Notes under the pieces: generated by a model | The model's database searches: none | Told to the model about the DNA's origin: nothing | The model's input: only the letters and a program-made list of their open reading frames with translations | Position numbers and translations under genes: made by a program | Source: Escherichia coli | Lineage (GTDB): Bacteria; Pseudomonadota; Gammaproteobacteria; Enterobacterales; Enterobacteriaceae | DNA length: 64,000 nucleotides | NCBI RefSeq assembly: GCF_048403405.1 | Contig: NZ_CP183129.1 | Direction: 5' to 3' (one strand) | Shown: positions 24,144-26,600 of the stretch, piece by piece | Layout: the number at the start of each line of letters is the position of its first letter | Position numbering within the stretch: the first letter of the stretch is position 1

Positions 24144-26600
24144 ATGAGCACTGATAAAGAAGAAATTGCACTATATTACGAAGCCAAAAATGACAAAATC
24201 AGAAAACGTCTTGGAATTAAAGGCGGTTTTTACTGGCGCACAGCAAAAAAATTATCGGTTGCAATATCACGCGGTGTTGTCGCAATGGACGATGCCGGAT
24301 TTGACAAAGAGGATTTTAAAAAACCTGTTCGCGTCCATTTACCCGTTGTGAATGACCTTCCTCCGGAAGGCGTGTTTGATACCGAATTCTGCAACCGATA
24401 CGAAAAGGGCGGTGAAGATGGTATCACAATGGTACTTATCGCGCCCTCGCCCTCTGTTCAGGATAAACCAGCCAGCACTGACAATACCAACGTCAACGGC
24501 GAAGACATGGCTGAGATTGAGGAGAACATGCTCCTGCCGGTTTCAGGTCAGATTCTGCCTGTTCGATGGCTGGCACAGCACGGCAGCGAAAAACCGATCA
24601 CACACGTTTCGCGGGACGAACTGCGCACATTACATAACGCACAGGATGAAAAACTTCCCGCCGTTACCGCGCTGGCCATCTCAAATAAAGCAGCGCAACT
24701 CGAACCGCTGGAAATTCGCGATCTCCACAAACTGGTTCGTGACACGGACAAAGTTTTCCCTAATCCTGGTAATTCAGACCTGGGACTGATGACTGCTTTT
24801 TTCGAAGCATACCTGGGCGCTGACTACACCGATCGCGGTCTGCTGACAAAAGAGTGGATGAAAGGAAATCGTGTTTCACGCATCACCCGCACGGCTTCCG
24901 GTGCTAATGCCGGTGGAGGGAACAAAACCGATCGCAATCCGAATTTAGTACACACCTTCGATACGCTGGATGTGGAGATTGCAGCGGCCACACTTCCGAT
25001 GGATTTTAATATTTATGAAATTCCGGGCAGCGTTTATCGTCGCGCAAAAGAAGTCGTCCGGAAGAAAGAAAGTCCGTTCAAAGAATGGTCCGCAGCACTT
25101 CGCGCAATCCCGGGTATCCTGGATTATTCCCGCGCCGCTATTTTTGCACTTATCCGAAGCGCACACCCTGAATTTTATCACTACCCGGGACGCCTTCAGG
25201 GGTATATCAACGCCTATTTGACGGAAACTGATCACGAGAACCCTACCGAGGAAACTCTCGCTGCTGCACGACATACACCGGAAAAAGATATCCTGGAAGA
25301 AGTTAACCGCGAACTGGCTGCTGAACGCGAAACAGAAGAAGAAAAAAATAATGAGGAAAAATCACAACCGTCTGACGCAATGGCAGATGAACAGGCAACG
25401 ACTGAAGCAATGGAGCCGAATACAACTGAACATCGCCAGGACACGCAATCGCTGGATACTCAGGCACAGATAGATCCGGTTAATCAGGTAAAAGTTACCG
25501 CTGACGAAGTAAACAAAATTATGCAGGCAGCCAATATCAGCCAGCCTGACGCCGATAAGTTGCTTGCGGCCTCTCGCGGAGAATTTGTTGCAGGGATTAG
25601 CGACCCGAATGATCCGAAATGGGTCAAGGGGATGGAAACCCGCGATTCTGTGAACCAGAACCAGCAAGAAACGGAACAGAACGGCCAGAAAGCGGAACAA
25701 AACAGCCCAAATGCGTTACAAAACGAGCCAGAAACGAAACAACCTGAACCAGTAGTGCAACAGGAACCGGAAAAGATCTGCACCGCCTGCGGTCAGACCG
25801 GCGGCGGCAACTGCCCTGATTGTGGCGCGGTGATGGGCGACGCAACATACCAGGAAACATTCAATGAAGAGAATCAGGTTGAAGTTCAGGAAAATGATCC
25901 GGAGGAAATGGAAGGCACTGAACATCCACACAAGGAGAACCCTGGCGGCAATCAGCATCACGATAGCGATAGTGAAACTGGCGAGGCGACAGATCACTCA
26001 GTTAAGGTGAACGGTCATCATAAAGGCACATCCACCAGCGGGACGTGTGACCATCTAATGATCGACCTTGAAACCATGGGAAAAAATCCAGATGCCCCGA
26101 TTATCTCAATAGGTGCAATATTTTTCGATCCGCAAACCGGAGATATGGGACCGGAATTTAGTAAGACTATCGATCTGGAAACTGCTGGCGGAGTCATTGA
26201 TCGGGACACCATTAAATGGTGGCTTAAGCAATCACGCGAAGCGCAATCTGCCATTATGACCGATGAAATCCCGTTAGATGATGCACTGTTACAATTGCGG
26301 GAATTTATCGACGAAAACTCCGGCGAATTTTTTGTTCAGGTCTGGGGAAATGGAGCCAACTTCGACAACACGATTTTGCGCCGTTCATACGAACGGCAGG
26401 GGATCCCCTGCCCGTGGCGTTACTACAACGATCGCGATGTACGCACAATCGTTGAGCTGGGGAAAGCCATAGACTTCGATGCCAGAACGGCTATTCCATT
26501 CGAAGGTGAGCGCCATAATGCACTTGATGACGCCCGTTACCAGGCAAAATACGTTTCAGTTATCTGGCAAAAACTGATCCCGAGTCAGGCTGATTTTTAA
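24144..26600 (+). CDS. RecE N-terminal-region homologue fused to a DEDDh (DnaQ-like) 3'-5' exonuclease domain (818 aa)
   Basis: Residues ~110-590 parallel Rac RecE ([90 protein letters not shown]). The C-terminus has [14 protein letters not shown] and [11 protein letters not shown] motifs. Confidence 0.8.
   Translation: [818 protein letters not shown]

What the first reader, a model, noticed from the sequence alone, without database searches (positions are those of the whole stretch)
24144..26600. RecE N-terminal region fused to a DEDDh 3'-5' exonuclease domain, with no RecT/Bet partner and no Gam
About 480 residues of this 818-aa protein parallel the dispensable N-terminal two-thirds of Rac RecE. 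Shared blocks include [54 protein letters not shown], and the Cys4 ribbon [21 protein letters not shown].

The RecE C-terminal 5'-3' exonuclease domain is replaced by a DnaQ-like domain with all three Exo motifs:
- DLETMG (Exo I)
- [12 protein letters not shown] (Exo II)
- [11 protein letters not shown] (Exo III), which makes it the DEDDh subtype.

The next genes are xis and int. No annealase (RecT, Bet or Erf) and no Gam-like ORF is visible between dicB/ydfD and xis. Opposite nuclease polarity on the same N-terminal scaffold implies a function other than RecET-type recombineering.
Basis: partly seen in the sequence, partly recalled or inferred. Interest (0 to 1): 0.5.

Follow-up and report, generated by a model that had tools for sequence, protein, structure and literature searches.

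The report
RecE scaffold carrying a 3'-5' exonuclease
This lambda-like prophage gene joins the front part of the RecE recombination nuclease to a DexA-like 3'-5' exonuclease, with no strand-annealing partner; it is real and found in about three quarters of complete E. coli genomes, is already catalogued, and its function has not been tested.

Summary
ORF 24144-26600 (+) encodes 818 aa.

- **RecE-like part:** residues 58-617 are 56% identical to Rac RecE residues 50-588. Protein and DNA homology both stop at about residue 618.
- **Nuclease part:** residues 637-818 are a PF16473 DEDDh domain (E 1.3e-67) with D641, E643, D741, H791 and D796. The closest solved relative is T4 DexA, a 3'-5' DNase.
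- **No partners:** profile scans found no annealase or Gam in the early-left operon or the right-arm genes scanned.

The gene is not rare.
- The DEDDh segment occurs in 4047 of 5426 complete E. coli genomes. The Rac RecE nuclease segment occurs in 1730.
- NCBI annotation (PGAP) names it "exonuclease".
- The order (dicB-ydfD)-exo-xis-int recurs in the plaque-forming phage Tritos.
- Zheng et al. 2025 list Tritos as the prototype "nuclease-only, no anti-RecBCD, Chi-rich" recombination module. The window prophage fits: 8 Chi sites on one strand against 2 on the other, versus about 0.5 expected per strand.

Best reading: an early-left-operon 3'-5' exonuclease made by a nuclease-domain swap on the RecE scaffold, in a phage that relies on host RecBCD-Chi-RecA for recombination. 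Its precise role, the role of the N-terminal scaffold (no fold relatives found) and its substrate are unknown. A defence role like the published EcD/HREX and TONDO exonucleases is the main rival.

The parts
24144..26600 (+). Whole gene: 818-aa RecE-N::DEDDh exonuclease. It is identical to the protein that PGAP names 'exonuclease' (WP_001542183.1).
   Evidence: ORF list. 100% DNA matches in many E. coli genomes. SD and stop read directly.
24144..25277 (+). Folded RecE-like N-terminal region, aa 1-378. It comprises an alpha/beta domain (1-100) and two helical domains (130-248 and 270-378). It includes PF06630 at aa 55-189 (nt 24306-24710). Function unknown.
25278..26051 (+). Acidic, predicted-disordered linker, aa 379-636 (net charge -38, pI 4.3). 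It is shared with RecE up to about aa 617.
   Evidence: pLDDT below 50 over most of 398-631. Composition. BLASTP and blastn end of homology at aa 617-618, nt 25995.
25560..25622 (+). Conserved short motif inside the linker, aa 473-493 ([21 protein letters not shown]). It is kept in both RecE-type and DEDDh-type relatives and is a candidate partner-binding peptide.
   Evidence: Column counts in alignment A2, for example G479 26/29 and F481 21/29. Also visible in the consensus of A3.
25779..25823 (+). Cys4 ribbon [15 protein letters not shown], aa 546-560. It is shared with K-12 RecE but is not family-wide.
   Evidence: Position. Aligned to RecE. Cysteines present in only 7 of 34 aligned relatives.
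26052..26597 (+). DEDDh (DnaQ-like, PF16473) 3'-5' exonuclease domain, aa 637-818. Catalytic residues D641, E643 (Exo I), D741 (Exo II), H791 and D796 (Exo III).
   Evidence: Pfam E 1.3e-67. Alignment to T4 DexA. Family alignment. Profile against PDB hits only DexA, E 1.3e-15. Fold.
21130..21537 (+). DicA/CI-like HTH repressor at the head of the leftward early region.
   Evidence: Pfam HTH_3 and Phage_CI_repr. PHROG repressor families.
21744..24066 (+). Upstream genes of the same strand and operon. In order: DUF1391 (21744-21896), unknown 124-128 aa (21908-22282), DicF sRNA (22578-22629), isrK and C4 RNAs (22864-23052), Rha antirepressor (to 23667), dicB (23678-23866), ydfD/DUF1482 (23863-24066). 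None is an annealase or Gam.
26662..28018 (+). Excisionase (26662-26931) and integrase (26900-28018) directly downstream. The prophage end abuts potC (28185).
26032..26039 (-). Chi site (GCTGGTGG on the - strand) inside the exonuclease gene. It is one of 8 same-orientation Chi sites in window 1-28018. The others are at 6955, 7593, 10591, 10908, 12914, 13098 and 27848.
   Evidence: Pattern count and dinucleotide shuffles: mean 0.55, max 3 of 200.

Best explanation
The gene is the positional and N-terminal counterpart of Rac recE in a Qin/Tritos-type lambda-like prophage. The RecE 5'-3' PD-(D/E)XK nuclease domain, and with it recT, has been exchanged for a DexA-like DEDDh domain inside the disordered linker.

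The protein is made from the repressor-controlled early-left operon on induction or infection. Its C-terminal domain removes nucleotides from free 3'-OH ends. DNA is the more likely substrate, because T4 DexA is the only solved relative detectable by sequence.

The phage has no annealase and no RecBCD inhibitor, and it is loaded with correctly oriented Chi sites. So it most likely leaves homologous recombination to host RecBCD-Chi-RecA. The exonuclease would then be an accessory end-processing enzyme, not half of a RecET/Red-type annealing pair. One possible role is trimming 3' tails so that ends become substrates for RecBCD.

The folded N-terminal region and the conserved linker motif are a nuclease-independent module. 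It presumably targets the enzyme to the same, still unknown, partner or DNA structure as in RecE.

Shown here: architecture, swap point, catalytic residues, fold, lack of partners, conservation, prevalence and Chi enrichment. Inferred: polarity, substrate, timing of expression and cooperation with RecBCD.
For: - Architecture and swap point.
- DEDDh residues and fold, with DexA as nearest solved relative.
- Same strand, a 77-nt gap after ydfD with a good SD, and no above-background promoter or terminator signal. The gene sits where recE sits in Rac.
- No annealase, SSB or Gam.
- The same annealase-less order recurs in phage vB_EcoS-640R1, Tritos (whole 46-kb genome), Citrobacter phage Chris1 and a 45%-identical relative.
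- Among the best 150 cluster representatives that match the N-terminal region, 17 carry DEDDh and 22 carry a RecE-like PDDEXK domain. P0123 has an 83%-identical N-terminus with a PDDEXK tail, which shows module exchange.
- Purifying selection: dN/dS 0.16-0.39 in the N-terminal region and about 0-0.05 in the DEDDh domain. The ORF is intact in five diverged genomes.
- Chi count 8 versus 2 against about 0.5 expected, and none in the head and tail genes of the identical prophage.
- Zheng et al. 2025 (PMC12315714) report a class of phages without anti-RecBCD that are Chi-rich. Tritos is their 'nuclease only' prototype, and they note DnaQ-like 3'-5' nucleases in lambdoid Rec modules.
Against: - No biochemical or genetic data exist for this protein or any close relative that I could find.
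- Pfam names the domain after an exoribonuclease (Rv2179c), so RNA cannot be excluded.
- Zheng et al. themselves note that DnaQ-type 3'-5' exonucleases usually inhibit recombination, and that one-gene modules are 'somewhat suspect'.
- The RecBCD end-blunting idea is my inference from established E. coli genetics and was not tested.
- The consensus promoter scan cannot exclude an internal or weak promoter.
- Two recent papers report DEDDh exonucleases carried by bacteria or mobile elements as phage defences.
Confidence: 0.5

Rival explanations
1. Superinfection-exclusion or defence nuclease. The prophage protein would degrade the nucleic acid of other phages. One model is the E. coli DexA homologue EcD ('HREX'), reported to digest 5hmC DNA of T4. 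Another is the ISG20-like 'TONDO' exonucleases, reported to trim RNA-phage 3' ends.
For: - T4 DexA is the closest solved relative.
- Kang et al. 2025 (PMC12153337) report DexA homologues as most prevalent in Escherichia, Citrobacter and Klebsiella, and report that EcD protects against T4.
- TONDOs combine a DEDDh domain with variable auxiliary domains and lie in prophages.
- The neighbouring dicB is known (my knowledge of the literature) to block some phages when expressed.
Against: - The gene sits inside the repressed early-left operon without its own recognisable promoter.
- The Tritos homologue, 99% identical in the DEDDh domain, is not among the genes expressed in the lysogen.
- There is no PADLOC hit.
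- By sequence alignment, DexA W152 corresponds to Y761. DexA D169 lies in an insertion absent here. DexA D90, which is lost in EcD, is retained as D713.
- EcD starts MIDTET according to its cloning primer, and no such sequence occurs among the relatives retrieved.
- The TONDO screen was restricted to proteins under 500 aa.
Confidence: 0.15
2. Exoribonuclease. The domain acts on RNA 3' ends, as Rv2179c does. Possible targets are host or phage transcripts, or sRNAs such as the DicF encoded in the same operon.
For: The best Pfam family is named '3'-5' exoribonuclease Rv2179c-like'. Structural neighbours include RNase T, Orn and REXO2. DicF, isrK and C4 RNAs lie upstream.
Against: A profile search of all PDB sequences finds only the DNase DexA (E 1.3e-15) and no RNase. 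The scaffold is that of a DNA recombination nuclease. DEDDh enzymes often act on both substrates, so sequence alone cannot decide.
Confidence: 0.1
3. Nucleotide scavenging, as classically proposed for T4 DexA. The enzyme would convert oligonucleotides or host DNA fragments into mononucleotides during lytic growth.
For: Homology to DexA. The gene is in the early operon.
Against: Lambdoid phages are not known to degrade host DNA (established knowledge). A 620-residue, conserved RecE-type scaffold is unnecessary for an oligonucleotidase. The scaffold is under purifying selection.
Confidence: 0.1
4. It still works in RecET-type single-strand annealing, using an annealase supplied in trans. Candidates are RecT of a co-resident Rac prophage or an unrecognised phage protein.
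For: Some genomes carry both this gene and recET. Strain 222, NZ_CP020516, appears in both searches. One 124-128-aa operon protein has no known function.
Against: - A 3'-5' exonuclease would destroy the 3' tails that annealases use.
- The RecE domain that partners RecT is the part that is missing (established knowledge).
- The complete Tritos genome has no annealase.
- 4047 genomes carry the DEDDh segment but only 1730 carry the Rac recE nuclease segment.
- The unknown protein is far smaller than any annealase family.
Confidence: 0.05
5. Non-functional relic of a rearranged recE gene.
For: It lies in a prophage; many prophage early genes decay.
Against: The 818-aa frame is intact. Catalytic residues are conserved across clusters sharing less than 50% identity. 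dN/dS is well below 1. The segment is present in 75% of complete E. coli genomes, with up to 7 copies, and in a plaque-forming phage.
Confidence: 0.03

Closest known systems
Rac prophage RecE (exonuclease VIII), E. coli K-12 b1350
   Same: 56% identity over residues 58-617 against RecE 50-588, including the PF06630 region, the acidic linker, the [15 protein letters not shown] motif and the Cys4 ribbon. It occupies the same place in the early-left operon, upstream of xis and int.
   Different: The C-terminal PD-(D/E)XK 5'-3' nuclease (RecE 588-866) is absent and is replaced by a DEDDh domain. There is no recT, ralR or rcbA downstream. The protein scores below the NCBIfam equivalog cut-off.
Phage Tritos gp27 (TRITO_27) and the 'Tritos-type' nuclease-only Rec module of Zheng et al. 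2025 (PMC12315714)
   Same: The DEDDh domain is 99% identical and the linker 69%. The order dicF-dicB-ydfD-exo-xis-int is the same. Neither has an annealase, SSB or anti-RecBCD gene, and both genomes are Chi-rich.
   Different: The first ~245-270 residues of the Tritos protein are not homologous to the window protein and give no PF06630 hit. The integration site and integrase differ. The window copy has an isrK/C4/antirepressor cassette upstream.
Bacteriophage T4 DexA (exonuclease A; PDB 8KEL/8KEN)
   Same: DEDDh catalytic residues and fold. It is the only solved protein detected by sequence profile (E 1.3e-15) and is the top Foldseek hit.
   Different: About 32% identity in the pairwise alignment (22% in the Foldseek match). 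DexA is a stand-alone 227-aa protein with extra loops, including the one that carries D169. The window domain lacks these loops and is tethered to a 636-residue N-terminal extension.
EcD / HREX (Kang et al. 2025, PMC12153337)
   Same: An E. coli DexA homologue with conserved DEDDh residues. It is described as lacking DexA's surface loops.
   Different: EcD is expressed alone and starts MIDTET according to its primers. Its sequence could not be retrieved, so identity to the window domain is unknown. The window domain keeps the Asp at the DexA D90 position that EcD has lost.
Rv2179c of M. tuberculosis (name-giving member of PF16473)
   Same: Same Pfam family.
   Different: Rv2179c is a stand-alone bacterial exoribonuclease. 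It was not detected in the PDB sequence searches with the window protein or its family profile.

Membership tests
RecE / exodeoxyribonuclease VIII (NCBIfam NF007259 equivalog) | Whole-protein score at or above the curated equivalog cut-off (1269 bits) | tested here: not met
   908.7 bits; only profile positions 1-602 of 877 are matched.
RecE / exodeoxyribonuclease VIII (NCBIfam NF007259 equivalog) | C-terminal PD-(D/E)XK 5'-3' dsDNA exonuclease domain (RecE 588-866; Pfam PF12684) | tested here: not met
   No PF12684 hit. No BLASTP similarity beyond RecE residue 588. phmmer with the RecE C-terminus finds it in 22 relatives, and the DEDDh-type relatives are not among them.
RecE / exodeoxyribonuclease VIII (NCBIfam NF007259 equivalog) | N-terminal Exonuc_VIII region (PF06630) and RecE-type linker | tested here: met
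   PF06630 E 1.9e-27. 56% identity to RecE 50-588.
RecE / exodeoxyribonuclease VIII (NCBIfam NF007259 equivalog) | Cognate RecT annealase gene adjacent | tested here: not met
   xis follows after 61 nt. No annealase family appears in any operon ORF. In contrast, the listed Rac-type recE matches overlap recT.
DEDDh (DnaQ-like) 3'-5' exonucleases, Pfam PF16473 | Profile match above the gathering score | tested here: met
   227.3 bits against a cut-off of 27, covering profile positions 2-177 of 177.
DEDDh (DnaQ-like) 3'-5' exonucleases, Pfam PF16473 | Exo I D-x-E, Exo II D, Exo III H-x4-D catalytic residues | tested here: met
   D641, E643, D741, H791 and D796 align with the T4 DexA residues and are conserved in the family.
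DEDDh (DnaQ-like) 3'-5' exonucleases, Pfam PF16473 | RNase H-like DnaQ fold | tested here: met
   AlphaFold domain pLDDT about 85-93. Foldseek hits are DexA, RNase T, the Cas2-DnaQ domain and Orn, all with probability 1.00.
DEDDh (DnaQ-like) 3'-5' exonucleases, Pfam PF16473 | Measured 3'-5' exonuclease activity and substrate (DNA or RNA) | not testable with these tools
   Needs enzyme assays.
Tritos-type 'nuclease only, no anti-RecBCD' Rec module (Zheng et al. 2025) | A nuclease gene in the early-left operon with no annealase, SSB or RecBCD inhibitor | tested here: met
   Class definition in Table 1 of PMC12315714.
Tritos-type 'nuclease only, no anti-RecBCD' Rec module (Zheng et al. 2025) | Four or more Chi sites on the active strand, clustered toward the right end of the phage map | tested here: met
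   8 versus 2 in window 1-28018; shuffles give mean 0.55 and max 3. There are none in the 25 kb of head and tail genes of the identical prophage in strain 7/2.
HREX / EcD 5hmC-specific defence exonuclease (Kang et al. 2025) | Trp equivalent to DexA W152 and an acidic residue equivalent to D169 | tested here: inconclusive
   In sequence alignments W152 pairs with Y761 (W, Y or other residues in relatives). D169 lies in a DexA-specific insertion absent here. No structure-based alignment was available.
HREX / EcD 5hmC-specific defence exonuclease (Kang et al. 2025) | Loss of the tetramer-forming Asp (DexA D90) | tested here: not met
   D713 aligns with D90 in both the MAFFT and the HMMER alignments.
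HREX / EcD 5hmC-specific defence exonuclease (Kang et al. 2025) | Protection of the cell against T-even phage | not testable with these tools
   Indirect evidence only: the Tritos homologue is not expressed above background in the lysogen.
TONDO (ISG20-like anti-RNA-phage exonucleases, bioRxiv 2026) | Sequence relationship to the tested TONDO proteins and defence against MS2/Qbeta | not tested
   No TONDO sequences were available. That screen considered only proteins under 500 aa.

The most novel reading that the evidence does not exclude
The RecE N-terminal region would be a nuclease-agnostic targeting platform whose function has been unknown since RecE was discovered. In most E. coli lambdoid prophages it would deliver a 3'-5' DEDDh exonuclease rather than the RecE 5'-3' nuclease.

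In Gam-less, annealase-less, Chi-rich phages this enzyme would prepare DNA ends for host RecBCD-Chi-RecA. That would define a third, host-dependent phage recombination strategy beside the Red/RecET and Erf/Sak types. It would also offer a handle to find what the RecE N-terminus binds, through the conserved [15 protein letters not shown] motif.
Probability: 0.2. Interest if true: 0.6.

Novelty: already known. Interest (0 to 1): 0.33.

Why it matters
- **Annotation.** Many records still call this protein "exodeoxyribonuclease VIII", that is, a 5'-3' dsDNA exonuclease. It lacks that domain. It should not be counted as a RecET recombination system in prophage surveys or recombineering screens.

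- **Biology.** The form carrying a 3'-5' nuclease is more common in E. coli than RecE itself: 4047 against 1730 of 5426 genomes. It rides on the same N-terminal scaffold, whose function is a long-standing unknown. Two opposite-polarity nucleases on one scaffold argue that the scaffold has a role independent of the nuclease. That gives a natural pair for swap and pull-down experiments.

- **Current work.** The gene also connects to the 2025 proposal that Chi-rich lambdoid phages depend on host RecBCD, and to recent claims that DEDDh exonucleases carried by bacteria or mobile elements act as phage defences.

Tried and rejected
- **K-12 YdfE.** I guessed that K-12 YdfE (Qin), which lies at the same position after ydfD, was a truncated copy. 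BLASTP shows no similarity, so this was rejected.

- **Word-indexed protein search.** The search with the N-terminal 620 aa returned only near-identical E. coli copies and gave no diversity. It was replaced by the representative-library search.

- **Recovering EcD (HAK9828821.1).** I wanted to compare EcD directly with the window domain. Only its cloning primers are available.
  - The primers do not match the window.
  - A viral-contig scan gave one chance hit.
  - The single metagenome scan gave 8 hits; the one inspected frame by frame was non-coding, and none carries the forward primer.
  - The gene was probably codon-optimised. No retrieved relative contains MIDTET.

- **PADLOC.** No match to any defence-system model.

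- **Promoter and terminator scan of 20800-28200.** Counts were no higher than in shuffles, so nothing can be concluded about an internal promoter.

- **Supplementary tables of Zheng et al. 2025.** These would say how they typed the Tritos nuclease, but they are not held.
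Full report
**1. The observation**

The ORF 24144..26600 (+) is real: 818 aa, ATG start preceded by GAGG, TAA stop.
- Pfam finds PF06630 (Exonuc_VIII) at residues 55-189 (E 1.9e-27) and PF16473 (Rv2179c-like 3'-5' exonuclease) at 637-808 (E 1.3e-67).
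- The NCBIfam RecE equivalog matches only its first 602 of 877 positions and scores 908.7, below its 1269-bit cut-off.
- BLASTP against K-12 Rac RecE gives 56% identity over residues 58-617, matching RecE 50-588, and nothing after that.
- At the DNA level, similarity to recE stops at window 25995. That is residue 618 and RecE codon ~589.
[quoted passage not shown] The break therefore lies in the linker just before the nuclease core.
- D641, H791 and D796 are invariant in an alignment of 11 DEDDh-type relatives, and E643 and D741 are nearly so. All five align with the catalytic residues of T4 DexA.

**2. Structure**

A full-length AlphaFold model with a 34-sequence alignment shows three parts:
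- folded regions at 1-100, 130-248 and 270-378;
- a long low-confidence stretch at 398-631, which is strongly acidic (net charge -38);
- a confident DEDDh domain at 634-818.

Foldseek against the PDB puts T4 DexA (8KEL) first (E 5e-8). RNase T, a Cas2-associated DnaQ domain and oligoribonucleases follow. A family profile searched against all PDB sequences finds only DexA (E 1.3e-15).

Inside the disordered linker, a 21-residue motif (473-493, [21 protein letters not shown]) is kept across both RecE-type and DEDDh-type relatives. The Cys4 ribbon is present in only 7 of 34.

**3. Surroundings**

The gene lies on the same strand as a DicA/CI-like repressor gene and downstream of it. The order is:
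- repressor (21130-21537);
- DUF1391 protein;
- an unknown 124-128-aa protein;
- DicF sRNA;
- an isrK/C4/Rha-antirepressor cassette;
- dicB;
- ydfD;
- the exonuclease;
- xis and int;
- then potC.

None of these ORFs matches a RecT, Bet, Erf, Sak, SSB or Gam family, and neither do nine right-arm proteins without a clear function. In E. coli strain 7/2, which carries a 100%-identical copy, the ~49-kb prophage between potB and potC looks intact and has no annotated annealase.

The gene occupies the position that recE holds in Rac: racR ... kilR-ydaE-racC-recE-recT-ralR-rcbA-xisR-intR. The consensus promoter and terminator scan shows nothing above background, so it cannot settle whether an internal promoter exists.

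**4. Distribution**

Within complete E. coli genomes:
- The whole gene has copies covering at least 80% in 1272 of 5426 genomes, named "exonuclease" or "3'-5' exonuclease" by PGAP.
- The DEDDh-coding segment alone is present in 4047 of 5426 genomes, with up to 7 copies and mostly at least 95% identity.
- The Rac RecE nuclease segment is in 1730 genomes, and the listed matches overlap recT.

Across public proteins:
- A search of 1.84 billion cluster representatives with the N-terminal 620 residues finds only 271 clusters, so the scaffold is a narrow family.
- Of the best 150, 17 carry the DEDDh domain, 22 carry a RecE-like PD-(D/E)XK domain (PF12684 confirmed), and 23 have other tails of at least 150 residues; the ten of these that I scanned mostly lack Pfam hits in the tail.
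- P0123 has an N-terminus 83% identical to the window protein but a PD-(D/E)XK tail.
- The Tritos-type protein has a 99%-identical DEDDh domain but an unrelated first ~250 residues.
- The protein is therefore a mosaic of exchangeable modules.

Conservation:
- The same annealase-less order, repressor - small genes - exonuclease - (xis) - int, is seen in phage vB_EcoS-640R1, phage Tritos, Citrobacter phage Chris1 and a 45%-identical relative from another enterobacterial assembly.
- All five genes have intact frames.
- dN/dS is 0.16-0.39 for the N-terminal region and about 0-0.05 for the DEDDh domain.
- The gene is therefore maintained by selection and is not a relic.

**5. Literature**

*Zheng, Casjens, Davidson, Amundsen and Smith* (Genome Res 2025, PMC12315714) typed the recombination modules of 325 lambdoid phages.
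- They report DnaQ-like 3'-5' nucleases in such modules.
- They list Tritos as the prototype of a "nuclease only; no annealase, SSB or anti-RecBCD" type with 7-21 top-strand Chi sites.
- They argue that phages without a RecBCD inhibitor accumulate Chi and use host RecBCD for the recombination needed to make concatemers.

*Chi test in the window.*
- The prophage part (1-28018) has 8 Chi sites in one orientation and 2 in the other. Dinucleotide shuffles give a mean of 0.55 and a maximum of 3 in 200.
- In the identical prophage of strain 7/2, none lies in the 25 kb of head and tail genes.
- Tritos has 9 against 2.
- The window prophage therefore belongs to this published class.

*Tritos.* It is a plaque-forming siphovirus of strain LF82. 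[quoted passage not shown]

*Kang et al.* (NAR 2025, PMC12153337) solved T4 DexA. They report an E. coli homologue, EcD, as a 5hmC-DNA-specific anti-T4 exonuclease. They note that DexA homologues are most prevalent in Escherichia, Citrobacter and Klebsiella. Those are also the genera where I saw RecE-N::DEDDh copies. I could not retrieve the EcD sequence, so its relationship to the window domain is unknown.

*A 2026 preprint* reports ISG20-like DEDDh "TONDO" proteins with variable auxiliary domains as defences against RNA phages.

**6. Interpretation**

What is shown:
- a nuclease-module swap on the RecE scaffold at the linker;
- an intact, conserved DEDDh active site;
- no annealase or Gam;
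- an operon position equivalent to recE;
- a Chi-rich genome.

What I infer:
- The protein is an early lytic 3'-5' exonuclease, more likely acting on DNA than RNA, that does not work by single-strand annealing.
- It operates in a phage that depends on host RecBCD-Chi-RecA.
- One possible role is trimming 3' tails so that ends can load RecBCD. This rests only on established E. coli genetics: RecBCD needs nearly blunt ends. I rate the whole package at about 0.5.

The defence reading (0.15) is weakened by several points:
- the repressed-operon position;
- the lack of expression of the Tritos homologue in the lysogen;
- no PADLOC hit;
- retention of the DexA D90-equivalent Asp;
- absence of the loop carrying DexA D169.

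RNA as substrate (0.1), nucleotide scavenging (0.1), trans-complemented annealing (0.05) and decay (0.03) are less likely.

**7. Novelty and interest**

But the protein is identical to a widely deposited, reasonably named RefSeq entry. Its Pfam two-domain architecture is precomputed in public protein databases. Its module type was catalogued in 2025.

What remains open is the biochemical activity, the biological role, and above all what the shared RecE N-terminal scaffold does. That makes it a worthwhile but modest lead. I also note that the frequent label "exodeoxyribonuclease VIII" is wrong for this protein.

Noticed in passing
window 22578-23667: DicF (22578-22629), isrK (22864-22940) and a C4-type antisense RNA (22965-23052) are followed by a Rha-family antirepressor ORF (from ~23110 to 23667). 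This looks like a P1 immI-like or Gifsy-1 isrK/anrP-like cassette inserted between dicF and dicB. It is absent at this position in Tritos and in K-12 Qin.
   Followed up: partly
window 6955, 7593, 10591, 10908, 12914, 13098, 26032, 27848 (- strand); 12456, 12508 (+ strand): Chi sites are strongly enriched and strand-biased in the prophage part of the window: 8 against 2, versus about 0.5 expected from shuffles. One lies inside the exonuclease gene and one inside int. The identical prophage in strain 7/2 has none in its head and tail genes.
   Followed up: yes
window 22580-22790 vs L001 8249-8464: The DicF region is 78% identical over 221 nt to the Rac region that holds the kilS sRNA. The DUF1391 gene (21753-21877) is 86% identical to Rac ydaF. 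The early-left operons of Rac-type and Qin-type prophages therefore share more than the recE scaffold.
   Followed up: no
P0137 (752 aa), DEDDh domain from residue ~569: This relative has DLKTMG and SFAN in place of DLETMG and NFDN. The Exo I Glu and the Exo II Asp are both replaced, so a probably catalytically dead DEDDh domain is kept on the RecE-type scaffold.
   Followed up: no
P0124 (703 aa): The RecE N-terminal region (PF06630, residues 2-178) is fused directly to a RecT domain (PF03837, 528-678). This is probably a deletion that removed the nuclease domain and joined recE to recT.
   Followed up: no
L005 6269-8740 (Tritos TRITO_27) / P0130: The Tritos-type protein shares residues ~270-818 with the window protein, but its first ~245 residues give no PF06630 hit. 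The N-terminal end of the scaffold is therefore exchangeable too.
   Followed up: partly
L007 5522-5860; L009 4723-5094: In two diverged relatives the gene immediately upstream of the exonuclease encodes an Rrf2/IscR-like small regulator instead of dicB and ydfD.
   Followed up: no
window 14114-14285 and 10283-10472: A sok antitoxin RNA (of the hokD/sok locus) and the sRNA STnc100 lie in the right arm of the prophage.
   Followed up: no
phage records ON470612, OV696610, ON041214 and others: Many phage and prophage records annotate this protein as 'exodeoxyribonuclease VIII' or 'ds DNA exonuclease', although it lacks that nuclease domain. This is a systematic annotation error.
   Followed up: yes
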